DNA of 17,909 bases from Planctomycetota bacterium (GTDB taxonomy: Bacteria > Planctomycetota > UBA1135 > UBA2386), in the NCBI GenBank assembly GCA_039029375.1, contig JBCCGH010000196.1, forward strand, positions 1-17,909, in the 5' to 3' direction. Shown here one piece after another: positions 2,917-17,909 of the stretch (the stretch's first letter is position 1; each line of letters begins with the position of its first letter). The notes below the pieces were generated by a model. The model was given only the letters and a program-made list of their open reading frames with translations. It did no database searches and had not been told where the DNA came from. Both the position numbers and the translations under genes were made by a program.

Positions 2917-3278
2917 GGCAGTGCTCCTTCGGTTGGGGGGGGTGATGGGGAGTCGTTGGGGCTTGGTTTCGATGGATGTCGCACGCGAGAGAGAGTGCGG
3001 TCGGGAGGTGTCACGCGATCCAGGCCCGCTTTGGCAGCGGAACCGCGCGTTCGTGCGGCGAGGGATCGAGGCGAAGGCCAGCGTCGGGATGCTCCATTTC
3101 GCGGAGTGGTCCGTCCGCCGGCGTGCGCGACGATGAGCGCCGAGCAAAGGACGCGATTGCGAGGCTGCCGCGACGGTGCCCCGGCTCGATTCGGCGACGC
3201 AAGGTCGCTCGGACCGAGTCCGGGCCGCCGGTCCGCAGGCACGCTCCCGACCGACACCGGGTCGTAAACGGCTAGAAA

Positions 3279-3422
3279 GGCCGGTTGGGGATTCGAACCC
3301 CGAGGACTGTGAGTCCTTTACCACCCAGACGGGTCTCGAACCCGGGCCGACGCTCGCGCGTCGGCCTCCCCCAGACGGGACACCGGGATAGGATTCTGCG
3401 AGGGACGCCGGTCGAACCCGCG
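3279..3422 (-). other. Cluster of tRNA-like T-arm hairpins (possible tRNA 3'-end remnants or an att-site scar); not an intact tRNA
   Basis: Three GGGTTCGA T-loop-like hairpins on the minus strand: CGGGG-TTCGAAT-CCCC, CGGG-TTCGAGA-CCCG and GGGTTCGACC. There is also a GGCCGACGC-GCGA-GCGTCGGCC GNRA hairpin. No 7-bp acceptor stem and no tmRNA tag frame could be built. Confidence 0.25.
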
Positions 3423-3810
3423 TTCGCGGAACGCAGCGTACCGACACCGGGATCGATCGAGCCGGTGGGGGCGCCGCGCCGCCGGACGACATCCGGTCGA
3501 AGAATGCGAAGTGGGGCCGGCCGCCAGCCGGCCCGAGTCACAGCGTGTTCGCTAGACGATTTCTCTCCATGGCTGCCTCCCTGGGAAAGCGGTGACGGTG
3601 TGAAATGTCGTCGATCCAGCGCGGGGCGACCGACGACGAGGAATGATGATGGGCGAGGACACAGTCCCAATGGACGAATGATGCCCTCATTGCGCCGGAC
3701 GCGGCGGTCCGGCGACTTGGGGTGGTGGCTTGATTGTCAAAGAGCGGGCGGTCCGCCAATGAGTACGGACCCCGACCGATCCGGCAGACCGGCGCATTGC
3801 GTCGTGGCCG

Positions 3811-4499: not shown

Positions 4500-6080
4500 G
4501 TGCGTTCGCAACCCGGAGTGCAACCACGCACGATCGCTGCGCTCGCGGGCCGGTTGCTCGAATGGAACGCTTCGGGGGTGGAGACGTTTTGGCGCGCGAG
4601 CTCGCGCCAGACCCTCGTCCAGTTGGTCGCCGGGAGCTTTGCCGCAATCGCGGTCATCGAGGTGTGGCGGCTGGCGTCTGTCGCTGCCACCGGTGATGTC
4701 GGTGTCCTTGGAGACGCCCCGTTCGCTTGGTACGCCTACCATCCGGGCCGGGGCGTCGCCTCGTGGGTGGTCTCTGCCTGGCCTCTCATTCCTTGGGCCC
4801 TCGGCGTCGGCGCGGGCTTGGAGTTGTGCGTGCGCAGTGCAAAAGGCCAAAGTGCGCGCCGGCATCGCCCCGCGGAGATCGTTCTGGTCGGCCGTGCTCT
4901 CCAGGCGGTTGTCCTGGTGGTCGCAGCCGCTCACGGCGCGACGATGGGTCGGACGGCACCCGGGCTGTGGATCGCGACGGGTTGGGGGGCCGGGTACGCG
5001 CTCGTCGTTTGGCTGCGCCGCTCGCCCCGCGGTCGCCAATGGTGGTCCTTCTGGACCCGGACACGCGGCCGGCAACCTCGGCTCGACGCGCGGGTCCTGG
5101 CGTGCTTGGTCGGGGCCGGCTTCGCTATGGCCGTGCTGTCGATTTTCCTTGCGAGGGCGGCTGGCGCGTGGGGGATTGTGCTCGTGGCGACCGTGCTCGC
5201 GGCGCCCGCTGTCGCGTTTGCTGCCCCGAGTTGGCGCGTGGCGGAGGTGGGAGCCGGGGGAGCCGAGTCTGGCGCGGCGCCGGATCTGGAATCCGAGCTT
5301 CCGGGGCTACACATGATCGAGATCGGCGCCGGGACGTTCGAGATGGGAGGGACGCGCTACGGTGATGAGCAGCCCGTGCACCGAGTCACCGTTGCCGCGT
5401 TCGCGATGGGCGCCACCACCGTCACGCGGGGGCTGTACCGCGCGGTGCTGCGGCGCGCTCCGGCAACGGAAGGACTCTACAAACCCAACTGGCTCGACGA
5501 GGCGGACGGAAACGAGTTGCCTGCCACCGCGTTGAGTTGGGTCGACGCAGCGCGCTTTTGCAATGCGCTGTCTCTACTCGCTGGACGGTCGCCGTACTAC
5601 CGGATGCGCGGCGTGGGAGACAACGCTCGGCCGGTCGCGGATTCGACCGGCGGCTACCGACTGCCCTCCGAGGCGGAGTGGGAGTATGCCTGCCGGGCTG
5701 GCACGACCACCGAGTATTCGTTTGGCGATGATGCATCGCTGCTCAGCGAGCATGCGTGGTGGGGGAACAACTCGGACACAGGATCGGGCCGCTCGGCCCA
5801 GCCGTGCGGCGGCAAGACACCAAATCCGTGGGGTCTGTGCGACATGCACGGCAACGTGTGGGAGTGGTGCGAGGACGACTGGCACGACGACTATCAGGGC
5901 GCGCCGACGGATGGCCGTGCGTGGAACGACGATGGCGTGAGTCGGGTGCTGCGGGGCGGCTCCTTCGGCGTCGACTACCCGGGGCTCTTGCGCTCGGCGT
6001 GCCGGCGCAGGAGCGAGCCCACGCGCCGGCGCGAGAGCATCGGCTTCCGCGTCGTCCGTCCCGCGCGCCGCCAGCGGTGA
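4500..6080 (+). CDS. DGR target protein 1: ~6 predicted TM helices at the N-terminus plus a C-terminal FGE-sulfatase (CLec-fold) domain that carries VR1; GTG start is uncertain
   Basis: Six hydrophobic segments lie within aa 40-235. The FGE/SUMF1-type domain reads GAGTFEMGGTRYGDEQPVHRVTVAAF...RLPSEAEWEYACRAGT...HGNVWEWCEDDW...RGGSF...IGFRVVRP. Its last ~45 codons are homologous to the TR. Confidence 0.8.
   Translation: MRSQPGVQPRTIAALAGRLLEWNASGVETFWRASSRQTLVQLVAGSFAAIAVIEVWRLASVAATGDVGVLGDAPFAWYAYHPGRGVASWVVSAWPLIPWALGVGAGLELCVRSAKGQSARRHRPAEIVLVGRALQAVVLVVAAAHGATMGRTAPGLWIATGWGAGYALVVWLRRSPRGRQWWSFWTRTRGRQPRLDARVLACLVGAGFAMAVLSIFLARAAGAWGIVLVATVLAAPAVAFAAPSWRVAEVGAGGAESGAAPDLESELPGLHMIEIGAGTFEMGGTRYGDEQPVHRVTVAAFAMGATTVTRGLYRAVLRRAPATEGLYKPNWLDEADGNELPATALSWVDAARFCNALSLLAGRSPYYRMRGVGDNARPVADSTGGYRLPSEAEWEYACRAGTTTEYSFGDDASLLSEHAWWGNNSDTGSGRSAQPCGGKTPNPWGLCDMHGNVWEWCEDDWHDDYQGAPTDGRAWNDDGVSRVLRGGSFGVDYPGLLRSACRRRSEPTRRRESIGFRVVRPARRQR
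5941..6073 (+). repeat. DGR variable repeat VR1
   Basis: 133-nt alignment to the TR. 17 mismatches, all at TR adenine positions (AAC codons). The A-free 3' segment cggcttccgcgtcgtccgtcccgcgcgccgcc is identical to the TR and is IMH-like. Confidence 0.85.
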
Positions 6081-6104
6081 TTCGCCCTTTGCGCCTTGCC
6101 CCTT

Positions 6105-6123
6105 GCCGCGCCGCAGGCGCGGC
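6105..6123 (+). other. GC hairpin downstream of VR1 (putative DGR homing/cruciform element)
   Basis: GCCGCGCC-GCA-GGCGCGGC followed by cgcgcgtgt, 31 nt after the VR1 end. A near-identical element follows VR2. Confidence 0.6.
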
Positions 6124-6172
6124 GCGCGTGTGTCACCGCAGCGACACTCACGTGTCACCTTGGTGACGACGC

Positions 6173-7165
6173 TCAGAAACACAGCAGCCCGCGATAGGAG
6201 GCCACCACCCGCTCCAACTGTGCGGGTGACTGAGCCGCGGCGACCCGCAGGCGCGCGTCGAGCCGGCGGCGCAACTTCCGCGAGGCGCTCACCCCGGCGC
6301 GACTGATGCGATAGCCCAAAAACACCGCGGGCTCCCGATTGGGGACGACGTGCCACCGCTTGCGATTCAGCTCCAGCCCGCGCTCGCGCTGGAGCCACGC
6401 CGCGATCTGAGCGCGCGCCTCGCGGAGCCGCCCAGCGTCGTCGTCGAACAGCACGAAGTCGTCGGTGTAGCGCACGTAGCCTGGGGCCTTGAGCTCTCGT
6501 TTCACGTGATGATCGAGCCCGTCCAGGTAGAAGGCTCCGGCCCATTGGCTCAAGTACGATCCCAAGCTCAGGCCGCTTTCGGTCGGCAAGGGCGCCCGTT
6601 CGAGGTCGAGTGCAGCCACTGCCAGGGGACTCTCGTACACCGCCGCGTGCGAAGCGAGCTGCCGGTCGATCAACTGCCGCGTGCACGGATCGCGCAAGCG
6701 GCGAAACATCAAGCGCCGCAGCGTCGGCAAGTGGATCGAAGCGAAATAGCGCCGCACGTCGAGGTGCACGCGGTGGCGATGCCGGCGCTGCAGCCGTAAG
6801 AACGTCAGACAAGCGCGCAGCGGACCCTTGGCCTGGGATTGCGCGAAGTGCTCGGGTCGGTAGCCCTGCTCATACGCGGGGCCGATCTCGTCGAGGAGAG
6901 CGCGCTGCACGATCCGGTCGCGGATCGCGGGCGCGGCGATGATGCGGACCTTGGGGTCCGCGATCACCCGTAGCGTCCAGGGCCGAGGCCGGTACCGGCC
7001 ATTGCGCAGTGCCCGGTGTAGCTCCAGGATCTTGCGATCGGCATCGAGGTCGAACCACGCCATTCGCGGCTGCCGCGACTTGCCTCGGCGGCAAGCGCGG
7101 TACGCGCGCCACAGCGCGACGTGGTCGGTCAGGCGTGCAAAAGACCCGGCTGGAACTCGGCGCAT
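6173..7165 (-). CDS. DGR reverse transcriptase (330 aa)
   Basis: RT motifs present: KVRIIAAPAIRDRIVQRAL (motifs 1/2), LDVRRYFASI (motif A), YVRYTDDFVLF (YxDD). The DGR-diagnostic SLGSYLSQ ([ILV]GxxxSQ) is also present. A TR lies immediately upstream. Confidence 0.9.
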   Translation of the reverse strand: MRRVPAGSFARLTDHVALWRAYRACRRGKSRQPRMAWFDLDADRKILELHRALRNGRYRPRPWTLRVIADPKVRIIAAPAIRDRIVQRALLDEIGPAYEQGYRPEHFAQSQAKGPLRACLTFLRLQRRHRHRVHLDVRRYFASIHLPTLRRLMFRRLRDPCTRQLIDRQLASHAAVYESPLAVAALDLERAPLPTESGLSLGSYLSQWAGAFYLDGLDHHVKRELKAPGYVRYTDDFVLFDDDAGRLREARAQIAAWLQRERGLELNRKRWHVVPNREPAVFLGYRISRAGVSASRKLRRRLDARLRVAAAQSPAQLERVVASYRGLLCF

Positions 7166-7337
7166 CAGCGCAACCCAAAGACCGCGTCCCTAAAAAGAGG
7201 CCCGCGCGGACGGTCGGCCGTGCGGCCTACAAGACCGCGCGGGCAGGGGGATCGCGGGGTGCCCCGGCCGTTTCGGCCGAGGTCGAAGCCCCGCCCAAGC
7301 CCTGCACGGCGCCGAGGCGGAGTCGCGGGCGGCGTGT

Positions 7338-7470
7338 TGGCGGCGCGCGGGACGGACGACGCGGAAGCCGATGTTCTCGTTCCGGTTCGTGGGCTCGTTC
7401 CTGTTCCGGTACGCCGAGCGCAAGTTCCTCGGGTTGTCGTTGTCGAAGGAGCCGCCCCGCAGCACCCGAT
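7338..7470 (-). repeat. DGR template repeat (TR)
   Basis: Adenine-rich in the sense (minus) orientation: 27 As, AAC codons translating as ...GGSFDNDNPRNLRSAYRNRNEPTNRNENIGFRVVRP. It is the invariant master copy for VR1 and VR2. It lies 45 nt downstream of avd and ~170 nt upstream of the RT. Confidence 0.85.
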
Positions 7471-7514
7471 GGGGCGGGACGGGAAGTTCGGGCTTGGTGA
7501 AGGTGTGAGCATGG

Positions 7515-7889
7515 CTAGCGGGGCTCGAGCGAGCGCAGCCAGCCGCCCAGCTGGCGGCCAATGCGATCCGCTTCGCCGAGCGCGAAGAACGCCTGCGAGG
7601 AGGCGAGCAGCGCACGCGCCTCGGCGAGCCGCAGATGCACGCGCAGCATCACGAGGCGGTCGTCGGCTTCGGCGAGCCGTTCGTCCACCTCGCGGTGCCG
7701 GACCGCGAGGCTGATGGCGTCGAGCAGACGCAGGCCGTTGTCGCACAGCGAGCGTGCCAGCGGCCGATCGTCGTCCTCCAGCCGATCGAGCAGCCAGGTG
7801 CAGAGTGCGAAGGTGTCGCGGAACACGGGCGCTGTGCCCGGCCGGGGGCGTGGCGTGGTCGGTGGTTCGGGAAGCATGGCGCGGCACAC
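7515..7889 (-). CDS. avd: Avd-like DGR accessory variability determinant (~120 aa helical bundle); start is GTG at 7889 or ATG at 7877
   Basis: Canonical position between the target gene and TR-RT. Size and helical character fit Avd. LVMLRVHLRL...EADRIGRQLGGWLRS resembles Bordetella-phage bAvd LAMLRFWLRFL...EVGRILGSWIAR. Confidence 0.6.
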   Translation of the reverse strand: MCRAMLPEPPTTPRPRPGTAPVFRDTFALCTWLLDRLEDDDRPLARSLCDNGLRLLDAISLAVRHREVDERLAEADDRLVMLRVHLRLAEARALLASSQAFFALGEADRIGRQLGGWLRSLEPR

Positions 7890-7890
7890 C

Positions 7891-8451
7891 TCAGTAGCGT
7901 CGGCGCCGGTCGACGCGGCGCAGCAGGCCGGCGAACGCCGGCATCAACTCCTGCTCGATCGAATCGGCAAGCTCCGCGGCCACCGGGCTCGTCTCTAGCA
8001 GGAGGTCGTTCAGGCAGCGGCTGGCCAGGTCGCGGGCTGTGCCATAGGCGGTGGCTTTCTCCGCGTGGTCGTAGCGGTGGCAACCGCAGCTCAACTGGGC
8101 GAGGGATTCGCGCAGCGTCGCCGTGGCGGCGTGCTCGGTGCCCAGCGATTGCGCAGCGCGCGCGTGGATTGGGGCCATGACCTGGAACGCCTTCAGGTCG
8201 CGTACCGAGTAGCGCTTGCGCGGCGTTGGCTCCGGTTCCAAGCCTAGGCCGGTCTCAACCGCCTCGCGCAAGCGCTCGCGCTTGCGCTCTTGAGCTTCCT
8301 TTCGCGTAGCAGTGAGCGGCAGATCATCGCTGGCAATGAGCCAGCGGCCTCCGACTTTGCGCGCGCGCAGGTTGCCTTGGCGGATGAGGTAGCGGACTTG
8401 GCGCGGGCTCTTGCCAAGCCTCGTGGCGGCGTCGTGCAGGGAAAGGTCCAT
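7891..8451 (-). CDS. Helix-turn-helix (excisionase / MerR-like HTH_17) DNA-binding protein, 186 aa, sitting between target 2 and avd
   Basis: MDLSLHDAATRLGKSPRQVRYLIRQGNLRARKVGGRWLIASDDL is a typical N-terminal HTH. The ATG is at 8449-8451 (internal to the 243-aa track ORF). It is tightly packed against avd. Confidence 0.55.
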   Translation of the reverse strand: MDLSLHDAATRLGKSPRQVRYLIRQGNLRARKVGGRWLIASDDLPLTATRKEAQERKRERLREAVETGLGLEPEPTPRKRYSVRDLKAFQVMAPIHARAAQSLGTEHAATATLRESLAQLSCGCHRYDHAEKATAYGTARDLASRCLNDLLLETSPVAAELADSIEQELMPAFAGLLRRVDRRRRY

Positions 8452-8587
8452 GGTCGTGCGCGTGCGCAGGGGGGAAGCGTCAGGCGTCGGGAGACCGCAC
8501 GGGGATTCCGGGATGCGCCGACGCACGGCGGTGGCGTGTGTGTCATCTTGGTGACCGGCGTGTCGCGCACGCGACAAAATACACGCG

Positions 8588-8604
8588 CCGCGCCTTCGGC
8601 GCGG
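8588..8604 (-). other. GC hairpin downstream of VR2 (counterpart of 6105-6123)
   Basis: Minus strand reads CCGCGCC-GAA-GGCGCGG then cgcgtgt, ~37 nt after the VR2 end. It shares the core CCGCGCCG..GGCGCGGCGCG.GTGT with the VR1 element. Confidence 0.6.
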
Positions 8605-8637
8605 AGACGAGGCAAGCGGCAATCCGCGAGCGGCGAG

Positions 8638-11600
8638 CTACTGGCGGCGCGCGGGACGGACGACGCGGAAGCCGATGTACTCGTTCCGGAGCGTGGGCTC
8701 GCTCCTGTTCCGGTACGCCGAGCGCAAGTTCCCCGGGTTGTCGTTGACGAAGGAGCCGCCCCGCAGCACCCGCCAAGCGTTGGCACCGGCGAGCCAGGCG
8801 TTGCCGTTGTCAGGGGCACCGCCATAGTCGTCGTGCCAACGATCCTCGCACCATTCCCACACGTTGCCGTGCATGTCGAACAGACCCCACGGGTTGGGCC
8901 GCTTGTGCGCGACCCGCTGCACCGAGCGGTCGGCCCCGCTGTCCGAGTTCCGGAACCACCAGGCGTGGGCACTCAATTCCCCGCCGTGGTTGCCGAACCA
9001 ATACGCACCGAGGGTGCCGGCCCGGCAGGCAAACTCCCACTCGGCCTCAGACGGCAGCCGGTAGCCGTCCGGGTTGTCGGGCGCCGGTTCTGCCGTTGCG
9101 CTCTGCCCCTGGCCGTGGACCGCGTAGTACGGGGCGCGGCCCACAAGCCGGGAAAGCGCGTTGCAGAATCGGACGGTATCGAGCCAGCTCAGCTCGTTGG
9201 CCGGGAGGTCGTGCCCGGAGTCCTTCTCCAGCCAGCCGGGCCGGTGAAGTTCCTGGTGGCCTGGCACGTCGTGCGACCGCGCGGCTGCCAACACGGCCCG
9301 GTATTGCGCACGGGTGACCTCGGTACGGCCGATCTCGAAGTCGCGGACGGTGACGGCGTGCTGTGGCAGCTCGTCGCCATACCTCGTGTCCGGGTCACTG
9401 GGGTCGCGGCCCATTTGGAACCGACCGCCTTGCAGACGCACCATGGACAGACCGAGCCGCAGCTGGGGCCGGCCCGCGGCGACCTCAATCGTGGCCTTTG
9501 GCCATAGATCCTCCAGCGGTACGAGTGACTCGGCGAACGCGCCAGCCATCCTGCCAAACCCGTCGGGGGAAACCGCGGCCAGAGACGGCGCGCCGCGCCA
9601 TGCTTGCAGCGCGTGCTTGGTTTGGCCAGTGGGGCCGATCCATACGATCTGCTCGGATTCCGCGCGTTCGAACGGTCTCTCCGCCTCGGCCGGCCCCGAC
9701 GCCGCCTCGCCGACCAACGCCACGTCCACCGACCCCGTATCGAGCAGGGCCATCGCCAACGGCACGGCTTCGCGGTCCTCTGCAGGCGCCGCGATCACCG
9801 CGGCGCTCTGGGTCCACCGGGGATCGTCGACGCGCCGCGGCTCATCGTCCAAGCCCCGCCAAAGGACCAGGAAACCGCCGGCTGGCACGGCGTTCTCGAC
9901 CTCGACCGGGCGCCAACGCGGGTCTACGTCGAGGTCTGGGTTGAACTCGACGCGCGTCAGCCGGCCGGGCATGCCGAGCAGCGCTCGGGCGCGCCCATCC
10001 GCGACATTGATCTTCGCGCATGCGCCCACGGTCACGGCCGGTGGGGGCGGCGGTGCCGTCAGCCGCGGCCCCCACCAGTGGCGCATCACGGGAAGGAACA
10101 GGCAGCCGCCCCCCAGGCCGCAGAGCAACGCCAAGGCGACGGCGGCGGGGCGCGGCAAGCGCGGGTCGGCGAACTCGGTGCGGCGCAGCGCGCCGAAGCC
10201 GAGCCGCTGCAGGCGGTGGACCGTGTCGGGGCGGGCGCACCAGGATGCGCGCGTCGCGGGGCCACCGACCCGCCACGGCAGCCGGACCAACCGGCGTTCG
10301 AGCTCGAGCCGACTCTCCTCCGCGCTGCCGCGGGCTGGCCGCGTGGCAGCCTCCTCGCGCGCTCTCGCGTTGCGCGGCGCCAAGGTTTCGAGGCGGGCCC
10401 GCACGCGCGTTGCGAGGCCGGACGCCGCGAGCCGCTCCAGCGTTGCGGCCGCGGTGTCGGGTGTGCGCCAGAGCTGGAGCAGCGCGATCTCCAGGCGCAA
10501 GGCGAGGCGCTGTTGCTCGCGCTGGTGTCGTTGCCGTGCCCGCTCGGATGACGGCTCCCGGGGCGCTGGGGGGCCTGCACGCACCTCCTCGCCATCGAGC
10601 CGGGCGAGCTCGCGCCGGTAGCCGTCCAGCCAGAACTGCACGCCGTGGCATAGCCAGCCCTCGGTGGGAAAGCCATGGGCAGCATCGTCCGTGCGCGCGA
10701 GCCAGTCACACCAGAGCGCGCGATCCTCGGGGGCGAAGCCGTAGCGCGCCCCGGTGGGGACCGCGTGCTCGAGCAGACGCTCGAGCTGACGCGCTTCGAC
10801 GCTCAGGCCGAGCGCCTCGCGCAGGGCCAGCGCGGTGTCGAAGTCAAAGCTGTCCGGTGTCAGTGCCAGTCCGGCCGCCCAAGCGCGCCGCGCGCCCGTC
10901 AGCGGCGGCGGCGTGCCGCCCGGGTGCAGCCGCGGCAGCTTGCCGTCCATCGTCCCCGGTTCGCCGCCGAGCCAACTCGGCACGGCGGTCGGCGCGAGGC
11001 ACGGAATGCCGTGCCGGCTGGTGATCCGCGCGAGGTCGAACGCGCCTCGGCCGTAGTCGGCAAACGCGAGACGCGGCCATTGGGCCAGGCCGGCCAGCTT
11101 CCGGTCGAGGCGTTGGCGGCGCAGTTCGCCCTGGTCTTGGATCCACAGGCCATGTCCGTCGGTCAGCACGGCGACCAGCGCGGTTTGACGCTGGCCCTCC
11201 ACGGTCTCGGGCCGAAACTGCGTTTGGTTTTCGTCCCACCACAGCGTCTCCAGTGTGCCGTGGAACATCGCGGTCTTGATCGGCAGCCCCGCGGCGCTCG
11301 CGCATTGACCGATCTCGTCACGCTCGCGCTCGATTAGCTCGCGGTCGGCCATGCCGTCGACCCAGAGCCAGATCTCGCGTGGATAGCGCTGCCGTTCTCG
11401 CAGCAACACGAGGTGGCCGCCGTTCTGCGAGGTGGCGGCGACCGTGCGGTCCAGGTCAATGCGGGGCGTGAGGTCGTCGCTCACGTAGTGTTGGACGTTC
11501 CACACCATGTGGCGCAGGGCGGGTTGCGGCAGCAGCGGTGTGGCCTTGGCGGGCGGCGCGAGGTGCGGCAGCGACAGCGCACTCTGTCCCAGCGCGTCGT

Positions 11601-12324
11601 CGTGGAGCTCGGGGACGCGCCGCGCCCGGGCGTAGAACACTGCGCGCGACAAGCCGGCGAGCGCGAGCAGGCCGAAACCCAACAGCAGTGCCGTCGCGAC
11701 TGACGGCGAGCGCGGCACCGGCACGGGGTCGGCCTCCCACGTGGCGAAGCGGCGCACCAAGTTGGGCGGCAGGCCGTCATCGGGCTCGGTGCCTTCGTTG
11801 CCCTGCCCCGGCGTGCCTCGGCCTTGGGCACCGCCCTCTGTTGGTGGTCCGGAGGAGCGGGGTTGCTTCAATGGAGCGTTCGAGCGGGGCTCGCGCTGCG
11901 GGCTTGGGTCACCCGGGTCGCCGGCGAGCGTCAAGACTGCGATCAGTGCGGCGAGGATGAGCCCACCGGCCGCGAGGGTTCTCCAACCGAGGAGGCCAGC
12001 GCAAGGGCGCTCCACTCCCTCTTCCTCCTGGTCCTCGGTCCACCCGCTCTCGATCGGCCGCTGCACCCGGCGCTCGATCTCCCATCGTGCGTTCTGCTGC
12101 CAGCGTTCGAACGCGGCGTCGAACGCCTCGCGCTGCGCCTTGTTTTTGGTCAGCGTGCAGCGCAGCACCTGACGCAGGGGGGCATCCTCGCTCGCCGCTG
12201 GGCCCGCCTCGTCGCCGAGCAGCCGGCACAGATGGTGCAGCCGGGCTCGTTCGAGGACCCCGACCGCGACGCCGTGCGCGTCGAGATCCCGGAGCAGCGC
12301 CTCGAGCTCGAGCGGCGAGTCCAC
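8638..12324 (-). CDS. DGR target protein 2 (1228 aa): N-terminal cytoplasmic domain, 3 TM helices, a ~500-aa middle domain (possible degenerate vWA) and a C-terminal FGE-sulfatase/CLec domain carrying VR2
   Basis: GTG start 1 nt after the MoxR stop. TM helices at ~aa 113-135, 205-227 and 720-741. A vWA-like ...TALVAVLTDGHG motif is present. The FGE domain reads GGRFQMGRDPSDPDTRYGDELPQHAVTVRDF...RLPSEAEWEFACRAGT...HGNVWEWCEDRW...RGGSF...IGFRVVRPARRQ. Confidence 0.85.
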   Translation of the reverse strand: MDSPLELEALLRDLDAHGVAVGVLERARLHHLCRLLGDEAGPAASEDAPLRQVLRCTLTKNKAQREAFDAAFERWQQNARWEIERRVQRPIESGWTEDQEEEGVERPCAGLLGWRTLAAGGLILAALIAVLTLAGDPGDPSPQREPRSNAPLKQPRSSGPPTEGGAQGRGTPGQGNEGTEPDDGLPPNLVRRFATWEADPVPVPRSPSVATALLLGFGLLALAGLSRAVFYARARRVPELHDDALGQSALSLPHLAPPAKATPLLPQPALRHMVWNVQHYVSDDLTPRIDLDRTVAATSQNGGHLVLLRERQRYPREIWLWVDGMADRELIERERDEIGQCASAAGLPIKTAMFHGTLETLWWDENQTQFRPETVEGQRQTALVAVLTDGHGLWIQDQGELRRQRLDRKLAGLAQWPRLAFADYGRGAFDLARITSRHGIPCLAPTAVPSWLGGEPGTMDGKLPRLHPGGTPPPLTGARRAWAAGLALTPDSFDFDTALALREALGLSVEARQLERLLEHAVPTGARYGFAPEDRALWCDWLARTDDAAHGFPTEGWLCHGVQFWLDGYRRELARLDGEEVRAGPPAPREPSSERARQRHQREQQRLALRLEIALLQLWRTPDTAAATLERLAASGLATRVRARLETLAPRNARAREEAATRPARGSAEESRLELERRLVRLPWRVGGPATRASWCARPDTVHRLQRLGFGALRRTEFADPRLPRPAAVALALLCGLGGGCLFLPVMRHWWGPRLTAPPPPPAVTVGACAKINVADGRARALLGMPGRLTRVEFNPDLDVDPRWRPVEVENAVPAGGFLVLWRGLDDEPRRVDDPRWTQSAAVIAAPAEDREAVPLAMALLDTGSVDVALVGEAASGPAEAERPFERAESEQIVWIGPTGQTKHALQAWRGAPSLAAVSPDGFGRMAGAFAESLVPLEDLWPKATIEVAAGRPQLRLGLSMVRLQGGRFQMGRDPSDPDTRYGDELPQHAVTVRDFEIGRTEVTRAQYRAVLAAARSHDVPGHQELHRPGWLEKDSGHDLPANELSWLDTVRFCNALSRLVGRAPYYAVHGQGQSATAEPAPDNPDGYRLPSEAEWEFACRAGTLGAYWFGNHGGELSAHAWWFRNSDSGADRSVQRVAHKRPNPWGLFDMHGNVWEWCEDRWHDDYGGAPDNGNAWLAGANAWRVLRGGSFVNDNPGNLRSAYRNRSEPTLRNEYIGFRVVRPARRQ
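8642..8774 (-). repeat. DGR variable repeat VR2
   Basis: Collinear with TR 7338-7470. 6 mismatches, all at TR adenines. The A-free 3' segment is identical to the TR. Confidence 0.85.
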
Positions 12325-12325
12325 G

Positions 12326-13285
12326 TCAGAGTTTCTGCCAGTCTTCGGTCAGCTTGATCAGCGCGTGGACGCCTGGCAAGTCGCGCCGCACCGTCTGCAG
12401 GTCGGCGGCCCGGGTGCCCTGCGCCGCGAGGACCGCGAGCCACGAGAGCAGCTCCGCCGTGGTGGGGGGCTTGGTCAGCTCCCAGTCGGCGAGCTCGAAG
12501 AAGCGATCGATCGCCGCCTCGCGCACGTCGTCCGACAGGCCCGGAAACGACGATTGAAGCCGGCTCTGCACGATGTCTTCGACGAGCTTGCGGGTGAGGG
12601 TCAAGTGCTGGTGGATGCAACGGCGCAGAAACGCGTCCGGGAGCCGTCGCTCGGCGTTGCTCGTGATGACCACGATCGGCGACCGCTGCGGCCGGATCTT
12701 GCGATCCTCGAACGGATGCTCGAACCACTGCTGGTCGAGCACGTGCAGCAGGTCGTTGGGAAAGTCGCGCGGCGCCTTGTCGATCTCGTCGATCAGCACG
12801 ACGGCGCCGTTCGGTTGGTCAAAGGACCTCCACAGCGCGCGCTTGCGGACGAAGTCGCCGCGGCCGCGGCGCAGCGCCGGCTGCCCGTCGCCGCCCCCTT
12901 CGCCCGGGGCCTCGCTGCCGTGCTGGGCCCAGTGCAAGTAGGCGACGGCGTCAAAGTCGTAGCACAGCTCCTGCGCCGTCGACGTTGACTGCACGTGAAA
13001 GGCAAAGACCTCGAGCCCAAAGAACCAGCCCAGGTAGTGCGCGACCTGCGTCTTGCCCGTGCCCGGCGCGCCGGTCAGCAGCAACGGTGCGTCCACCGCC
13101 AACGCGGTGTTGATCGCGGTCTCGAGGTCGGCGCTCAGCCGGTAGTCCGGGGCGGCCTCGGTATGGTCGTGCAGGCTGCGCGGCACGCCGCGCTGGTGCA
13201 TGCTGGCGCGCGCAGCCGCCGGGTCGTGGCCTTCGCGCGTCGCGCGGCGGTCCACCAGCTGGAAGCGTGGTCGACGGGGGGTCAT
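12326..13285 (-). CDS. MoxR-like AAA+ ATPase (AAA_5 type), 319 aa
   Basis: Walker A LLLTGAPGTGKTQVA. Walker B VVLIDEIDKAP. Sensor region IVVITSNAE...LPDAFLRRC. ATGA start/stop overlap with the upstream TIR gene. Confidence 0.85.
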   Translation of the reverse strand: MTPRRPRFQLVDRRATREGHDPAAARASMHQRGVPRSLHDHTEAAPDYRLSADLETAINTALAVDAPLLLTGAPGTGKTQVAHYLGWFFGLEVFAFHVQSTSTAQELCYDFDAVAYLHWAQHGSEAPGEGGGDGQPALRRGRGDFVRKRALWRSFDQPNGAVVLIDEIDKAPRDFPNDLLHVLDQQWFEHPFEDRKIRPQRSPIVVITSNAERRLPDAFLRRCIHQHLTLTRKLVEDIVQSRLQSSFPGLSDDVREAAIDRFFELADWELTKPPTTAELLSWLAVLAAQGTRAADLQTVRRDLPGVHALIKLTEDWQKL

Positions 13286-15588
13286 GGTTCGGGCACCTCG
13301 GCCGGCAGCCCGCGCAGCCTGTCGCGGACGTCGTACCAGTTGCTGCGCTGGGCATGCTCGAGCCAGCGGACGGTCTTCTCGAAGTCGCCATCCGTGACCT
13401 GGTGCAGCAGGCTGGCAAACTCGCGGGCGTCGGCGGGAGGGAGGCCGCTGAGGTCGATGACCGCGTCGAGGATGTGAGTGCGTTCCACTCGCTCGAGGGG
13501 GCGCAAAACCTCGAGGCGGAAAGCCTTGGTGCGCGAGTCAAAGGCTAGGTCTTCGAGCTGGACGCGCATCTTGTCATGCAGCGAGGGCTCGCCCTCGAGC
13601 CCGAGGAGGGTGAGGACCTTGACGGCGTGCGGTCGGTAGCGCTCTTGGGTCAGTGTGTCCCGCGAGAAATCGCGAAACGCCGCGACGAGCCGCTCGGCCT
13701 GCTGCCAGCTGTCGATGCCGCGGCACCCCCAATCCAAGAACAGGATTCTCGGTTTGTCAGGTTGGCCGCGGGGCGCCGCGGCATCCAACGCGGCGCGCAG
13801 CTCGTGGTCGCCATCTGCGTGGCTCATCGCCGCCACCAACGCATCGCCGAGATCGCCGGCCCGGAGGTCGATGTCAGGCGGGAGCCGCACGGGCACCCGT
13901 CGCACCGGCGCGATGTCGAGTGCGTGGTCCACGAGCGCCTGCTCGGCGTGCTCGCCGAACAGTTCGACGTGGTTGCCAGGGGAACCCCAAGCGATCGCCG
14001 CGTGCACCAGCTCCTCGCGGTTGGCCACCAGTCCATCGAACATCTTGCGAAAGGCGCCGCGCTGCTCGTGCCGGTCGAGCATCAACCGGGCCAGGCGCCG
14101 TTCGATCGGGCGGGCGCTGGCCTGGACGTCCACGCGGAACTGGTCGTAGCGCGTCCAGATGGCGGCCGCGCGGTGCAGTCCATGAGCGACGGCCTCGACC
14201 GGATCGCAGTTCTCGGCCCCGAGCACCGCCCGTAGCCACTCGACCGCATCGGTCTTGTTCTTCGCCAGGTCCTGCTTGCGGGGCGTGAGGAGCAGCACGA
14301 CCGAGGCGGCGCGGTACAGGGCCTGAGGCAACGCCGCGATCGTGGCGGGGCGCGCGCCCACGAGGTGCAAGACGACAACGCGGGCCTTGCAGCCGTCGAG
14401 GAGTTCTTCGAGCGGCACCCACGTGGCGTTCGACGGACTGTCGCCCAGCTCCACCTCGGCCACGCCCTTCCGTATGCGGCCGCGAGCGAACACATACGCC
14501 ACGACGGGCTGCTCGTGACGGACCAGGGATTGCGCTTGGGCCACGGTCGCGCAGGGAGCTGCGACGTTGGGCGCGCCCCACGCCTCCTCGAGCCCACTGC
14601 GGACGCCGTGGCCGTGCGAGAGCGCGCCGAGATCGTCGCGCGGGCCCGCGGCCACGATCAGCGTGGGGCAGGGCGCGCGCAGTGCCGACGCATCCGGGCT
14701 GCCGGCGCCTTGCGAGCACAGCTCAAAGGTCCAGAGCTGGCGCAGCGGTTCGCCGTCCCAGGTCGTTTCCCACCAGGGCAGCCCGAGCAGCTCTGGGTCT
14801 TCGGTGTCGATGCGCACTCGCAACGCGAGGCTCAACGGGGTGGGGTGCGAGCCCCCAGCCGGGGCACTCAGACTGCCGAGCACTTGTTCGGTGCAGGGCT
14901 CTGGGAGCAGGAGGTCGAACAATTCGCTGGGACGAGCGTCTCGCGCCAGTGCCGCATCCGCCTCGCACTGGGTGATGGTCGCTCCATCGGGGCCGTGGAA
15001 TTCGCTGCGCAGTTGGTCGCCGTCGCGGGAGATGCGCACGGTGAGGGTTTGCCGTTCGGCCTCGTACGCGGGGCGACGGAGCCACCTCGGCTCGCGCTGT
15101 GCCATGGCGAGCAGCTGCTGTACGGCGCGGTTTAGGGCTGTCTTCCGCTCGTGGCCGGATTCGGGGAGGCCATCAGGCCCGGTCAAGCCGTGCAGCTCGG
15201 ACAGACGGAACTCGTGCGGCGTCCCGTCTAGCTCCCGAACGTCCAGCGCGATCTGATCGATCAGCGTCGGCCCAACGGCCAGCCACGTGATGTCGAGGAG
15301 CTTGCGCTGGCGCTGCTGGTACAGCAGAGGCAGCTCGACTTCGGTGACCCACTTCGAGTTGAGCGCTTCGGCACTGACGAGAAGGACCCCGATCCGGGCC
15401 GCCTCGATCGCTTCGCGAATGGTCCGGTCCAACCGCGCGCCCGCGACGATTTCCTCGTCGGTCCAGATCTCCAGGGGCAGCGGCGGACTGGCACCGCGCA
15501 GTGCCGGCTCGAGCACCTGGCGGAACTCCTCCAGCACCGGCCGGTCCTTGCGCGAGTAACTAATGAAGATGTGGTTGCGACTCGCCAT
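13282..15588 (-). CDS. TIR-domain protein (768 aa): N-terminal TIR plus a ~600-aa uncharacterised C-terminal region; first gene of the operon
   Basis: HIFISYSRKDRPVLEEF is TIR motif 1. ARIGVLLVSAEALNSKWVTEVEL contains the conserved W..E (candidate catalytic Glu). No P-loop is present. Confidence 0.85.
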   Translation of the reverse strand: MASRNHIFISYSRKDRPVLEEFRQVLEPALRGASPPLPLEIWTDEEIVAGARLDRTIREAIEAARIGVLLVSAEALNSKWVTEVELPLLYQQRQRKLLDITWLAVGPTLIDQIALDVRELDGTPHEFRLSELHGLTGPDGLPESGHERKTALNRAVQQLLAMAQREPRWLRRPAYEAERQTLTVRISRDGDQLRSEFHGPDGATITQCEADAALARDARPSELFDLLLPEPCTEQVLGSLSAPAGGSHPTPLSLALRVRIDTEDPELLGLPWWETTWDGEPLRQLWTFELCSQGAGSPDASALRAPCPTLIVAAGPRDDLGALSHGHGVRSGLEEAWGAPNVAAPCATVAQAQSLVRHEQPVVAYVFARGRIRKGVAEVELGDSPSNATWVPLEELLDGCKARVVVLHLVGARPATIAALPQALYRAASVVLLLTPRKQDLAKNKTDAVEWLRAVLGAENCDPVEAVAHGLHRAAAIWTRYDQFRVDVQASARPIERRLARLMLDRHEQRGAFRKMFDGLVANREELVHAAIAWGSPGNHVELFGEHAEQALVDHALDIAPVRRVPVRLPPDIDLRAGDLGDALVAAMSHADGDHELRAALDAAAPRGQPDKPRILFLDWGCRGIDSWQQAERLVAAFRDFSRDTLTQERYRPHAVKVLTLLGLEGEPSLHDKMRVQLEDLAFDSRTKAFRLEVLRPLERVERTHILDAVIDLSGLPPADAREFASLLHQVTDGDFEKTVRWLEHAQRSNWYDVRDRLRGLPAEVPEP

Positions 15589-15660
15589 CGAATTCGGGCC
15601 GAGGGCGCCTCACAATACCGTGAGCGCTGGGCGCCCGAGAACTTAGCTCGAACGGCCGGA
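15589..15660. promoter_or_regulatory. Divergent intergenic region between the TIR operon (-) and the ATPase/HNH pair (+); presumed bidirectional promoter region
   Basis: 72-bp gap between two divergently oriented start codons. No confident -35/-10 elements could be assigned by eye in this high-GC sequence. Confidence 0.3.
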
Positions 15661-17884: not shown

Positions 17885-17909
17885 AGCGTCCGGTCACGCA
17901 CCCTCTGCA

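What the first reader, a model, noticed from the sequence alone, without database searches (positions are those of the whole stretch)
5941..8774. Complete DGR: RT + TR + Avd with two adenine-mutagenised variable repeats
The 133-bp TR (7338-7470) aligns collinearly with VR1 (5941-6073) and VR2 (8642-8774). Every mismatch is at a TR adenine: 17 of 27 As in VR1 and 6 of 27 in VR2. There are zero non-A substitutions and no indels. The A-free GC-rich 3' segment is perfectly conserved, and homology breaks right at the stop codons, which fits an IMH/IMH* boundary. This is the hallmark of mutagenic retrohoming and is not explained by paralog drift. The RT carries the DGR-specific LGxxxSQ motif.
Basis: seen in the sequence. 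Interest (0 to 1): 0.85.

Follow-up and report, generated by a model that had tools for sequence, protein, structure and literature searches.

The report
Complete DGR diversifying two membrane lectin proteins
This is a genuine, intact diversity-generating retroelement in a Planctomycetota genome that rewrites the tips of two lectin-fold membrane proteins, one of them wired to a MoxR ATPase and a TIR protein; it is a new example of a recently described kind rather than a new kind.

Summary
A 131-132-nt template repeat (TR, 7338-7469, minus strand) matches VR1 (5942-6073, +) and VR2 (8642-8772, -) without indels. All 22 differences in the shared core lie at TR adenines (16 and 6 of 26), and all 26 adenines sit at codon positions 1 or 2, including 8 AAC codons. 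The cassette is complete: HTH_17 protein, Avd, TR, structured spacer RNA and an RT with LGSYLSQ and YTDD. Both VRs end FGE-sulfatase (C-type-lectin-fold) domains of membrane proteins of 526 and 1228 aa. The long target closes a tightly packed TIR - MoxR-like AAA+ - target operon. The window is a whole contig of a Planctomycetota MAG. About 60 related loci share the RT clade (45-62% identity) and the gene order where enough sequence is held, including Thiohalocapsa PB-PSB1 DGR 9 (Doré et al. 2024). This is therefore a new member of a known kind. Comparison added three things: a covariation-supported spacer RNA fold, GC hairpins with GNA loops 3' of both VRs, and clade-specific TTG repeats and TGTCA palindromes that co-occur with the HTH gene. 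The last may reflect an undescribed accessory DNA-binding factor. Activity and the immune-sensor role remain inferred.

The parts
4500..6080 (+). Target gene 1 (526 aa). The N-terminal ~245 aa hold 4-5 hydrophobic segments, and the C-terminal part is an FGE-sulfatase / C-type-lectin-fold domain (residues 271-520) ending in VR1.
   Evidence: Pfam FGE-sulfatase, E 1.2e-51. Hydropathy. Identical to NCBI protein P0121, annotated 'FGE family protein [Planctomycetota bacterium]', on a 17,909-bp contig.
5942..6073 (+). VR1, the variable repeat of target 1.
   Evidence: Collinear with the TR; 16 of 26 TR adenines are substituted, with 0 non-A changes and no indels.
6086..6108 (+). Three short TTG-containing repeats with a 7-nt period (TTTGCGC / CTTGCCC / CTTGCCG), directly 3' of VR1.
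   Evidence: Read from the sequence. It is the counterpart of the 8-nt-period yTTGAy repeats found 3' of VRs across the clade: 3.9 TTG in the first 60 nt against 0.8 after TRs, and a spacing of 8 nt in 63 of 101 cases.
6106..6126 (+). GC-rich hairpin 3' of VR1 (CCGCGCC-GCA-GGCGCGG), 33 nt after the end of VR1.
   Evidence: The 21-mer occurs only twice in the window, both times 3' of a VR; 0.01 matches are expected by chance. Folds. Hairpins with covarying stems and GNA/GNNA loops occur in at least 17 of 35 clade VR flanks. They correspond to the hairpin/cruciform of Guo et al. 2011.
6152..6167 (+). Near-palindromic 16-mer GTGTCACCTTGGTGAC in the gap between the convergent target 1 and RT genes, 5 nt from the RT stop codon.
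   Evidence: Only two matches in the window, the other at 8540-8555; 0.01 expected by chance. TGTC/GACA motifs are enriched 3' of clade VRs (3.6 against 0.8 per 122 nt), with TGTC-N8-GACA the preferred arrangement.
6173..7165 (-). DGR reverse transcriptase (330 aa) with LGSYLSQW and YTDD.
   Evidence: There are 201 homologues with E <= 1e-30. Those listed are 51-62% identical apart from P0001, which is the same protein with a later start call.
7166..7337 (-). Spacer between the TR and the RT: the structured part of the DGR RNA. Helix P1 pairs 7336-7328 with 7313-7305. Helix P3 pairs 7244-7236 with 7208-7200 and encloses the conserved UCUUGUAG...GACCGUC.
   Evidence: Alignment of 20 loci: 24 pairs, 96% of cells paired, 13 pairs with compensatory changes, 0 of 500 shuffles as good, and slid controls reach 31-45% paired.
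7338..7469 (-). Template repeat (TR), non-coding, with 26 A in the core, all at codon positions 1 or 2 of the VR reading frame (8 AAC, 2 GAC, 2 AGG, 2 GAG, TAC, ACG, ATC).
7515..7877 (-). Avd accessory protein (120 aa counted from the ATG at 7877).
   Evidence: Pfam bAvd E 2e-8; NCBIfam DivGenRetAVD E 7e-8; PHROG 'Avd protein of DGR' E 7e-7. The clade profile finds 4dwl and 8ub7_B. 14 of 14 homologues hit bAvd.
7891..8451 (-). HTH_17 / excisionase-like DNA-binding protein (186 aa) with a conserved C-terminal helical domain. It is a clade-specific accessory gene lying immediately 5' of avd.
   Evidence: Pfam HTH_17, E 2.5e-8, above the cut-off. PHROG excisionase families. 52% identical to its counterpart in L001. 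HTH and Avd are both present in 24 of 29 clade loci with enough upstream sequence, and both absent in the other 5. The C-terminal domain is not Avd-like.
8540..8555 (+). Second copy of the 16-mer (GTGTCATCTTGGTGAC), 87 nt 3' of VR2 and 89 nt upstream of the HTH start codon.
8584..8604 (-). GC-rich hairpin 3' of VR2 (CCGCGCC-GAA-GGCGCGG), 38 nt after the end of VR2.
8609..8624 (-). Two TTGCC repeats with a 7-nt period, 3' of VR2.
8642..8772 (-). VR2, the variable repeat of target 2.
   Evidence: 6 of 26 TR adenines substituted, 0 non-A changes, no indels.
8638..12324 (-). Target gene 2 (1228 aa). It has a conserved N-terminal ~100 aa, three hydrophobic segments (117-135, 208-226, 729-747), a conserved middle domain (~270-460), and a C-terminal FGE-sulfatase domain (960-1223) ending in VR2.
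   Evidence: Pfam FGE-sulfatase, E 1.4e-54. Hydropathy. 30% identical over its full length to the long target of L001. The middle domain has no Pfam or PDB match.
12326..13285 (-). MoxR-like AAA+ ATPase (319 aa). Its stop codon lies 1 nt from the target 2 start codon.
   Evidence: Pfam AAA_5 E 4.5e-10, with a weak bpMoxR hit. 53% identical to its L001 counterpart. Present in 14 of 19 clade loci of at least 9 kb.
13282..15588 (-). TIR-domain protein (768 aa), with TIR at residues 1-100 and an unassigned C-terminal region. It overlaps the AAA+ gene by 4 nt.
   Evidence: Pfam TIR_2 E 6.5e-12. PADLOC SAVED-TIR and ThsB models.

Best explanation
This is an intact cellular diversity-generating retroelement.

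**DGR mechanism.** The minus-strand cassette HTH-avd-TR-spacer-RT is transcribed. The TR plus its structured spacer forms the DGR RNA. The RT-Avd complex copies the TR into cDNA and misincorporates opposite the 26 template adenines. The cDNA then replaces the homologous VR at the 3' end of either target gene. Direction is set at the CCAG (VR) against CCAACA (TR) boundary and by VR-only flank elements, namely short TTG repeats and a GC hairpin with a GNA loop. Because every adenine sits at codon position 1 or 2, and mostly in AAC codons, each event recodes up to 17 residues without being able to create a stop codon. That gives about 4e14 protein variants per target, by my arithmetic from the codon list.

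**Targets.** Both diversified residues lie in the ligand-binding face of an FGE-type C-type-lectin fold on two membrane proteins. The long target is co-transcribed with a MoxR-like AAA+ ATPase and a TIR protein. It is most likely a transmembrane sensor with the lectin domain outside and the conserved middle domain inside, relaying ligand binding through the ATPase to the TIR effector. This is the 'ternary-like conflict system' reading.

**Shown here:** repeat anatomy, the A-only signature, codon design, intact RT and Avd, conserved cis elements, the RNA fold, and synteny across the clade.

**Inferred:** current activity, membrane topology, the sensor/effector coupling, and any immune role. My confidence is about 0.95 that this is a bona fide DGR and about 0.45 for the sensor-MoxR-TIR reading.
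For: - **Mutation signature.** A-only, indel-free TR/VR differences with P 3.8e-14 and 3.7e-5. Adenines lie only at codon positions 1 and 2, and there are 8 AAC codons. There are zero non-A differences over 105 non-A sites in each VR, which argues for recent copying.
- **RT and Avd.** The RT carries LGSYLSQ and YTDD, and its best PDB hit is 8ub7_A. Avd is supported by a clade profile that finds 4dwl and 8ub7_B.
- **Conserved cis elements.** The same CCAG/CCAACA boundary, VR-only hairpins and TTG repeats occur in about 20 related loci. The hairpin matches the experimentally defined target element of BPP-1 (Guo 2011).
- **Spacer RNA.** Its fold has 13 compensatory pairs.
- **Synteny.** Relatives share the order effector - MoxR - long FGE target - HTH - Avd - TR - RT - inverted short FGE target: L001, L017, L018 (= PB-PSB1 DGR 9) and L019.
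- **Operon packing.** TIR/AAA overlap by 4 nt and AAA/target 2 are 1 nt apart.
- **Topology.** Target 2 has three hydrophobic segments and the TIR protein has none.
- **Not a prophage.** No phage structural genes were found.
Against: - **Activity.** It is not demonstrated. There is a single assembly, and no VR variants of this organism were found. The only other sighting is a Logan unitig that stops inside the repeats.
- **VR2 divergence.** VR2 differs from the TR at only 6 of 26 adenines, fewer than any related VR (13-23).
- **Avd score.** The window Avd on its own is below the curated family cut-offs.
- **No vWA or VMAP domain.** Neither could be detected in target 2 or in the TIR protein, and the structure model was unusable (pLDDT 40). 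The link to MoxR-vWA ternary systems therefore rests on gene neighbourhood alone.
- **No experiment.** No experiment anywhere has yet shown that such targets sense antigens (Doré et al. 2024 say so themselves).
Confidence: 0.85

Rival explanations
1. Fossil DGR: the repeats record past mutagenic retrohoming, but the element no longer works.
For: No population data for this organism. VR2 is unusually close to the TR. Related loci in Thiohalocapsa are often degraded by transposons (Doré 2024).
Against: All ORFs are intact and the RT catalytic motifs are present. The TR, spacer helices, hairpins and boundary motif are all conserved in the window. There are zero non-A differences between the TR and either VR over 105 non-A sites each, which would not be expected after long neutral drift.
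Confidence: 0.1
2. The DGR is real, but the targets are not immune sensors. They are surface adhesins or environmental or signalling receptors, and the TIR-MoxR neighbours have a regulatory or unrelated role.
For: DGR-diversified lectin-fold proteins act as adhesins or ligand binders in the studied cases (BPP-1 Mtd, the lead example; Bacteroides pilus tips). Cyanobacterial DGR targets have been read as signalling proteins (Vallota-Eastman 2020, listed). The short target 1 has no partner genes. No vWA or VMAP domain was found.
Against: The MoxR-like gene is translationally packed against target 2 and recurs in 14 of 19 long clade loci. TIR, trypsin or caspase genes recur next to it. A PtuA-like defence ATPase lies next door.
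Confidence: 0.3
3. Prophage-borne DGR that switches tail-fibre tropism, as in Bordetella phage BPP-1.
For: RT, Avd and the HTH protein all hit PHROG families, including excisionase.
Against: There are no capsid, tail, terminase or integrase genes anywhere on the 17.9-kb contig. The targets are membrane proteins in an operon with TIR and AAA+ genes. Relatives lie on chromosomes of 4-8 Mb with the same cellular neighbours.
Confidence: 0.03
4. Ordinary paralogous repeats: three copies of a lectin-domain segment diverging by drift or gene conversion, with no reverse transcription involved.
For: The two lectin domains are paralogues, with 80% complementary arms at 5651-5726 and 8992-9067.
Against: All 22 differences are at adenines of the one copy that is non-coding and lies next to an RT (P about 1e-14). 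Identity drops sharply outside the repeat. The same pattern recurs in about 20 independent loci.
Confidence: 0.01

Closest known systems
Thiohalocapsa sp. PB-PSB1 DGR 9 (RT N838_02030, targets N838_02010 and N838_02035; clade 5C of Doré et al. 2024, PNAS, PMC10907252)
   Same: The RT is 52% identical and also 330 aa. The gene order is identical: effector - MoxR-like AAA+ - long FGE target with TM segments and an unassigned N-terminal extension - HTH_17 - Avd - TR - RT - inverted short FGE target. The TR ends in the same way (CCGCCAACAUG), and the spacer RNA helices are the same. The paper describes DGR 9 as a target next to a MoxR ATPase and a peptidase, with no vWA or VMAP domain and with TM segments in the targets.
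   Different: The effector here is a 768-aa TIR protein, not a trypsin-like peptidase. The host is a Planctomycetota MAG, not a purple sulfur bacterium. Here the MoxR gene abuts the target directly. The window has GC hairpins 3' of both VRs, whereas L018 has none. Its TTG repeats have a 7-nt period and read TTGCC rather than 8-nt TTGAy. There are no MITE-like arrays.
Planctomycetota MAG STL-PLA50 locus (L001, JAXMCA010000002.1)
   Same: This is the closest genome relative: RT 60%, Avd 57%, HTH 52%, AAA+ 53%, long target 30% over its full length, and the TIR-region protein 26%. It has A-only TR/VR differences of 14 and 15, together with the hairpins, TTG repeats and TGTCA palindromes.
   Different: The two targets are swapped: the short one is co-oriented upstream and the long one is inverted downstream. 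The two lectin domains are 91% identical over 781 nt, which indicates recent conversion.
MoxR-vWA (VMAP) ternary conflict systems coupled to DGRs (Kaur, Burroughs, Iyer & Aravind 2020, eLife, PMC7159879)
   Same: A MoxR-like AAA+ gene sits next to a large protein whose C-terminal FGS/FGE lectin domain is DGR-diversified, with a TIR effector gene in the same operon.
   Different: No vWA domain and no VMAP domain could be detected, so two of the three defining components are not met. The resemblance is one of neighbourhood and logic.
Bordetella phage BPP-1 DGR (mtd-avd-TR-brt)
   Same: It has an avd-TR-RT core, A-to-N mutagenesis, AAC-rich TR codons, a C-type-lectin-fold target, and a GC-rich identical segment followed by a VR/TR-specific boundary. 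It has a GC hairpin 3' of the VR (7-10 bp stem and G..A loop, 4-34 bp away) and a structured spacer RNA next to the TR. The RT and Avd here are detectably homologous to the RT and Avd chains of 8ub7 and to 4dwl.
   Different: The context here is cellular, not phage. There are two targets in opposite orientation. There is an extra HTH_17 gene. The hairpin loop is a 3-nt GNA rather than a 4-nt GRNA. TTG repeats and TGTCA palindromes lie 3' of the VRs.

Membership tests
Diversity-generating retroelement (DGR) | A TR/VR repeat pair whose differences fall at TR adenines | tested here: met
   22 of 22 core differences are at A, with none elsewhere and no indels; P 3.8e-14 (VR1) and 3.7e-5 (VR2).
Diversity-generating retroelement (DGR) | An adjacent RT of the DGR type ([I/L]GxxxSQ in motif 4, YxDD catalytic motif) | tested here: met
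   LGSYLSQW and YTDD are present. The best PDB hit is 8ub7_A, E 1.8e-21, aligned over IGSLTSQ. PHROG phrog_1423 (reverse transcriptase), E 5e-65.
Diversity-generating retroelement (DGR) | The VR lies at the 3' end of a target ORF, with TR adenines at codon positions 1 and 2 (AAC-rich) so that changes are non-synonymous and stop-free | tested here: met
   Both VRs end 1-2 codons before the stop codon. The adenines split 12 at position 1, 14 at position 2 and 0 at position 3. There are 8 AAC codons.
Diversity-generating retroelement (DGR) | An IMH / IMH* arrangement: a GC-rich identical segment followed by a VR-specific against TR-specific sequence | tested here: met
   A 36-nt A-free identical segment is followed by CCAG in both VRs and CCAACA in the TR. 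The same holds in about 20 related loci.
Diversity-generating retroelement (DGR) | Avd accessory protein | tested here: met
   The window protein alone is sub-threshold (bAvd 35.1 against 40 bits). However, 14 of 14 clade homologues hit bAvd (best E 5e-13), and the clade profile's top PDB hits are 4dwl (Bbp7) and 8ub7_B (Avd). The single-sequence AF2 model was uninformative, predicting one long helix.
Diversity-generating retroelement (DGR) | Ongoing mutagenic retrohoming (VR polymorphism at A sites; TR cDNA) | not testable with these tools
   No VR variants of this organism were found in the metagenome scan or the protein collection. The Logan unitig ends inside the repeats.
DGR target-site hairpin/cruciform (Guo et al. 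2011) | A GC-rich 7-10 bp inverted repeat with a small G..A loop within ~35 bp 3' of the VR, absent after the TR | tested here: met
   Stems of 7-8 bp with loops GCA and GAA lie 33 and 38 nt after VR1 and VR2. The 21-mer is found nowhere else in the window. Stems covary in the clade. The loop is 3 nt rather than the 4-nt GRNA of phage DGRs.
MoxR-vWA (VMAP) ternary conflict system (Kaur et al. 2020) | MoxR-like AAA+ ATPase | tested here: met
   AAA_5 E 4.5e-10, with a weak bpMoxR hit; the gene abuts target 2.
MoxR-vWA (VMAP) ternary conflict system (Kaur et al. 2020) | A vWA domain in the partner (target) protein | tested here: not met
   No vWA family was found at E <= 1 in the conserved middle domain of 10 long targets. 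A profile search against the PDB found nothing. The AF2 model had pLDDT 40 and was unusable. The only hint is a motif-level resemblance (VWLWxD ... ALVAVLTDG).
MoxR-vWA (VMAP) ternary conflict system (Kaur et al. 2020) | A VMAP protein carrying the effector | tested here: inconclusive
   The TIR protein has a 640-aa C-terminal region with no Pfam hit at E <= 1. I had no VMAP model to test against. No adaptor shared with target 2 was found by BLASTP.
RT clade of PB-PSB1 DGR 7/9 (clade 5C of Doré et al. 2024) | RT groups with N838_02030, with the same cassette order and the same TR end | tested here: inconclusive
   52% identity, identical gene order, TR end and spacer fold. No phylogeny including the clade 5A-5F reference RTs was built, so the clade label is an inference.

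The most novel reading that the evidence does not exclude
In this RT clade the DGR has a fifth, undescribed component: the excisionase-like HTH_17 protein encoded just upstream of avd.

- Its probable binding sites are TGTCAy-N4-rTGACA palindromes and arrays. They lie about 80 nt 3' of BOTH variable repeats, including the gap between convergent genes where no promoter is expected.
- They are enriched 4- to 5-fold over background.
- They are absent from VR flanks of DGRs that lack the gene.
- HTH and avd are always gained or lost together (24 loci with both, 5 with neither).

The novel reading is that the HTH protein marks or remodels the DNA next to each target, as an excisionase does. It would then license or direct cDNA integration, or tie diversification to a signal, rather than only repressing its own operon.

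A second open point is the run of TTG repeats that starts exactly at the VR/TR boundary (8-nt period in the clade, 7-nt here). An analogous yTCTGr run occurs in unrelated DGRs. It may be a general, unrecognised part of DGR target sites.
Probability: 0.3. Interest if true: 0.6.

Novelty: new member of a known kind. Interest (0 to 1): 0.3.

Why it matters
The DGR itself adds one more well-preserved example, in Planctomycetota, of the cellular DGRs that diversify putative sensors of MoxR/TIR conflict systems. That idea is still untested experimentally. This locus is compact, with no transposons and all parts on 11 kb, and it has a TIR effector whose activity is easy to assay, so it would be a reasonable candidate for reconstitution. 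The comparative by-products may be more useful than the locus. They are a covariation-supported fold for the DGR RNA spacer of this clade, VR-only flank elements, and a candidate DNA-binding accessory factor. A recent preprint on Bacteroides DGRs notes that the signals and regulatory mechanisms controlling mutagenic retrohoming 'await discovery'.

Tried and rejected
- **VR variants, DNA scan.** I looked for VR variants of the same organism with a degenerate TR pattern (N at every A) in metagenome contigs and found 0 hits.
- **VR variants, protein search.** A protein search with target 1 found only the window's own NCBI protein.
- **Exact look-up of the RT.** It is not on record. The later-start version P0001 gave only a 1.3-kb Logan unitig that ends inside the repeats.
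- **vWA domain in target 2.** Pfam at E <= 1 on 10 homologues, a profile search against PDB sequences, and an AF2 model built from a 3-sequence alignment (pLDDT 40) were all negative or unusable. The word-based homologue search found only 2 relatives of the middle domain.
- **Is the HTH C-terminal domain a second Avd?** hhalign gave probability 0.1, so I rejected this. The HTH protein has no PDB relative by phmmer.
- **Shared adaptor (EAD-like) domain between target 2 and the TIR protein.** BLASTP found nothing.
- **Single-sequence AF2 model of Avd.** It gave one long helix and was not used for a fold search.
- **Rfam.** There were no matches at gathering thresholds.
- **Terminator reading of the TR-RT stem.** In the single-sequence fold, the GC stem followed by a U run between TR and RT looked like a terminator. 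Comparison shows it is helix P3 of the conserved spacer RNA.
- **Clade label.** I first filed the locus under Doré's clade 5A (DGR 8). The paper's dataset shows that the Thiohalocapsa relative is DGR 9, in clade 5C, so I corrected this.
- **'MadB ATPase' lead.** The weak NCBIfam hit for the AAA+ protein led to no paper.

Full report
**1. The observation**

The three repeats exist at the stated places. In the coding sense of the variable repeats, the template repeat (TR, 7338-7469, minus strand) aligns without gaps to VR1 (5942-6073, plus strand) and VR2 (8642-8772, minus strand).

In the 131-nt core shared by all three, the TR has 26 adenines. VR1 differs at 16 positions and VR2 at 6. All 22 differences are at TR adenines. 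The hypergeometric chance of that is 3.8e-14 for VR1 and 3.7e-5 for VR2. The last 36 nt contain no A before the final base and are identical in all three copies.

- Position 8773 of VR2 is a T-to-G mismatch that lies outside the homology.
- The A at 7470 is changed to G in both VRs.
- Just 3' of the core, both VRs read CCAG where the TR reads CCAACA. That difference is fixed in every related locus. It marks the VR/TR boundary and is not random mutagenesis.

**2. The parts**

In the VR reading frame, all 26 TR adenines lie at codon position 1 or 2: 8 AAC, 2 GAC, 2 AGG, 2 GAG, and one each of TAC, ACG and ATC. Changes are therefore non-synonymous and cannot create a stop codon.

The RT (6173-7165, minus strand, 330 aa) carries LGSYLSQW and YTDD. 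Its best solved relative is 8ub7 chain A (E 1.8e-21), an entry whose chain B is named Avd.

The Avd candidate (7515-7877) is below the curated cut-offs on its own. It is supported in three other ways. It hits the PHROG family 'Avd protein of DGR'. All 14 clade homologues hit Pfam bAvd. A profile of them finds 4dwl (Bbp7) and 8ub7_B (Avd) as its top two PDB hits.

Between target 2 and avd lies a 186-aa protein (7891-8451) with an HTH_17 / excisionase-like N-terminal domain. It also has a conserved helical C-terminal domain that is not Avd-like.

Both VRs end FGE-sulfatase domains, a C-type-lectin fold:
- Target 1 (4500-6080, 526 aa) has 4-5 hydrophobic segments in its N-terminal half.
- Target 2 (8638-12324, 1228 aa) has three hydrophobic segments, at residues 117-135, 208-226 and 729-747.
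- Upstream of target 2 on the same strand, and packed against it, lie a MoxR-like AAA+ gene (12326-13285) and a TIR-domain gene (13282-15588). The gaps are 1 nt and a 4-nt overlap.

There are no phage structural genes on the contig.

**3. Source and relatives**

The window is a complete 17,909-bp contig of an NCBI Planctomycetota MAG. Target 1 is annotated there simply as an FGE-family protein. A Logan unitig from SRR22824298 is 99.9% identical to 6045-7367 and breaks exactly inside the segment shared by the TR and VRs.

The RT has 201 homologues at E <= 1e-30. Those listed are 51-62% identical, apart from P0001, which is the window RT with a later start call. The closest genome is another Planctomycetota MAG, L001, at 60%.

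L001, L017, L018 and L019 share the gene set: effector, MoxR-like AAA+, long FGE target, HTH_17, Avd, TR, RT and an inverted short FGE target. L018 is Thiohalocapsa sp. PB-PSB1 DGR 9, according to the dataset of Doré et al. 2024. That paper describes the locus as a target next to a MoxR ATPase and a peptidase. It reports no recognisable vWA or VMAP domain and notes TM segments in the targets.

A profile scan of metagenome contigs gave 80 more loci:
- In the 63 clade loci (RT at least 45% identical), the roughly 20 with a usable TR show the same layout. There are two VRs, one co-oriented upstream and one inverted downstream, with A-biased differences. There is one long and one short target.
- Either target may take either position.
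- HTH and avd occur together in 24 of 29 loci with enough upstream sequence, and both are missing in the other 5.
- The AAA+ gene is present in 14 of 19 long loci, and a TIR homologue in 6 of 19.

**4. Cis elements found by comparison**

(a) Spacer RNA. The 172 nt between the TR and the RT fold into a conserved structure. In an alignment of 20 loci there are 24 pairs, 96% of cells are paired, and 13 pairs show compensatory changes. None of 500 shuffles did as well, and slid controls reached only 31-45% paired. In the window, helix P1 pairs 7336-7328 with 7313-7305, starting directly after the TR end. Helix P3 pairs 7244-7236 with 7208-7200 and encloses the conserved UCUUGUAG...GACCGUC. This is the counterpart of the spacer region of the BPP-1 DGR RNA; that statement rests on my own knowledge of Handa et al. 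2018, which I did not read here. Rfam has no match.

(b) Hairpins. A GC hairpin lies 33 nt and 38 nt after VR1 and VR2: CCGCGCC-GCA-GGCGCGG at 6106-6126 and CCGCGCC-GAA-GGCGCGG at 8584-8604. The 21-mer occurs nowhere else in the window. At least 17 of 35 clade VR flanks have such a hairpin, with differing stems and G-N-A or G-N-N-A loops. This matches the target-site hairpin/cruciform shown to be needed for efficient retrohoming in BPP-1, which has a 7-10 bp stem and a GRNA loop 4-34 bp from the VR. The difference is a 3-nt loop here.

(c) TTG repeats. Immediately after the boundary, clade VRs carry 3-4 yTTGAy repeats. There are on average 3.9 TTG in the first 60 nt, against 0.8 after TRs and 1.2 in shuffles. 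The spacing is exactly 8 nt in 63 of 101 cases. The window has a 7-nt TTGCC variant at 6086-6108 and 8609-8624.

(d) TGTCA palindromes. Further 3', TGTC/GACA motifs are enriched to 3.6 per 122 nt, against 0.8 locus-wide and 0.7 after TRs. TGTC-N8-GACA is the favoured arrangement. The window has one near-palindromic 16-mer, GTGTCAYCTTGGTGAC, after each VR (6152-6167 and 8540-8555) and none elsewhere. These motifs are absent from 17 VR flanks of more distant, HTH-less DGRs, at 0.18 per 122 nt. Several of those distant DGRs do carry an 8-nt-period yTCTGr run plus a hairpin.

**5. Mechanism**

*Shown here:* the repeat anatomy, the substitution spectrum, the codon design, intact enzymes, conserved RNA and DNA elements, and conserved synteny.

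*Inferred from established DGR biology:*
- The RT-Avd complex copies the TR RNA into adenine-mutagenised cDNA.
- The cDNA replaces either VR.
- Direction is set by the boundary and by VR-only flank elements.
- The hairpin probably helps keep the target accessible.

Recent work in E. coli finds that retrohoming is favoured when the target is co-oriented with replication. The fixed inverted arrangement of the two targets means that one of them is always in the favoured orientation. That is a remark, not a result.

*Inferred with less confidence:* target 2 may be a transmembrane sensor whose variable lectin domain faces outward and whose conserved middle domain talks to the cytoplasmic MoxR-like ATPase and the TIR effector. 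This follows the proposals of Kaur et al. 2020 and Doré et al. 2024. I could not find a vWA or VMAP domain. The locus therefore works like, but is not shown to be a member of, the MoxR-vWA ternary systems.

**6. Rivals**

- Paralogue drift is excluded by the substitution spectrum.
- A prophage DGR is unlikely, because there are no phage genes and the relatives have chromosomal neighbours.
- A fossil element cannot be excluded without population data. It is disfavoured by intact parts and by zero non-A differences across 105 non-A sites in each VR.
- The targets could be adhesins or signalling receptors rather than immune sensors. That remains a serious alternative.

**7. Novelty and score**

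DGRs, multi-target DGRs, FGE-type targets and their linkage to MoxR/TIR conflict systems are all published, and a syntenic relative (PB-PSB1 DGR 9) has been described. The finding is a correct call of a new member of a known kind, so I score interest at 0.3.

The part that may be new is the HTH_17 accessory gene with its VR-flank palindromes, together with the boundary repeats. I found no paper in the searchable library linking such a factor to mutagenic retrohoming. Wu et al. 2018 list only Avd, HRDC, MSL and CH1 as accessory classes. I give that reading a probability of 0.3.

Noticed in passing
window 6152-6167 and 8540-8555; clade loci L001, L017, L019, L020, L032-L034, L044, L050, L051 (VR 3' flanks): TGTCAy-N4-rTGACA palindromes or arrays lie 3' of both VRs, including between convergent genes. 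They co-occur with the HTH_17-avd gene pair and are absent from HTH-less DGRs. They are candidate binding sites for the excisionase-like HTH protein.
   Followed up: partly
window 6086-6108 and 8609-8624; 35 clade VR flanks; L003, L006, L009, L011, L097, L099: Short tandem repeats start exactly at the VR/TR homology break. In the clade they read yTTGAy with an 8-nt period, and in the window TTGCC with a 7-nt period. Unrelated DGRs carry an analogous 8-nt-period yTCTGr run. In many loci the 8-nt period places a TGA in all three frames, but not in the window. Their function is unknown.
   Followed up: partly
window 7166-7337 (-): The TR-RT spacer folds into a conserved multi-helix RNA supported by covariation (13 compensatory pairs in 20 loci). 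No Rfam family matches it.
   Followed up: yes
window 8642-8772 against 5942-6073: VR2 differs from the TR at only 6 of 26 adenines, while VR1 differs at 16. Related VRs differ at 13-23. The cumulative GC skew rises across the whole window. If that reflects the leading strand, VR1 would be the co-oriented target that E. coli work predicts to be favoured.
   Followed up: no
window 15571-16737 (+): A PtuA-like (Septu / retron Ec78-type) ABC/AAA ATPase lies next to the TIR gene (PADLOC E 3e-23). This suggests a defence-island setting. No PtuB partner was identified in the remaining 1.2 kb.
   Followed up: partly
window 44-94 and 17838-17888: The two ends of the contig share a 51-nt direct repeat at 80% identity. 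It may be a dispersed repeat or a pair of paralogous genes that caused the assembly to break.
   Followed up: no
window 1780-3492 (-), 444-1535 (-), 17229-17510 (-): Neighbouring genes are an SPFH/Band 7 protein (570 aa), a Laminin_G_3 / concanavalin-like protein (363 aa), and the C-terminal end of a CTP_transf_1 (cytidylyltransferase family) gene. No link to the DGR was seen.
   Followed up: no
window 8638-12324 (-), residues ~270-460 of target 2: The conserved middle domain of the long targets (RxLVWGIxRFV...TVxATAxxGG...REVWLWxD...ALVAxLTDG...WPRLxFVD) has no Pfam or PDB match. Its motifs loosely recall a degenerate vWA domain, which would pair naturally with the MoxR-like ATPase.
   Followed up: partly
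L044 (dn target) and L051 (dn target): In two clade loci the long target is instead a STAND/NACHT-type NTPase (GAGKST Walker A), with an N-terminal TIR-like or phosphoesterase-like region, fused to the variable lectin domain. The same DGR cassette therefore serves different sensor architectures.
   Followed up: no
L001 7888-8668 against 11078-11858: In the closest genome relative, the lectin domains of the two targets are 91% identical over 781 nt as an inverted repeat. This points to recent gene conversion or duplication between the targets. In the window they have diverged, with only a 76-nt stretch at 80%.
   Followed up: no
L016 (Logan unitig, SRR22824298) = window 6045-7367: The only other sighting of this organism is a unitig that ends on both sides inside the 36-nt segment shared by the TR and VRs. 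It shows how DGR repeats fragment short-read assemblies, and it may explain why VR variants were not recovered.
   Followed up: yes
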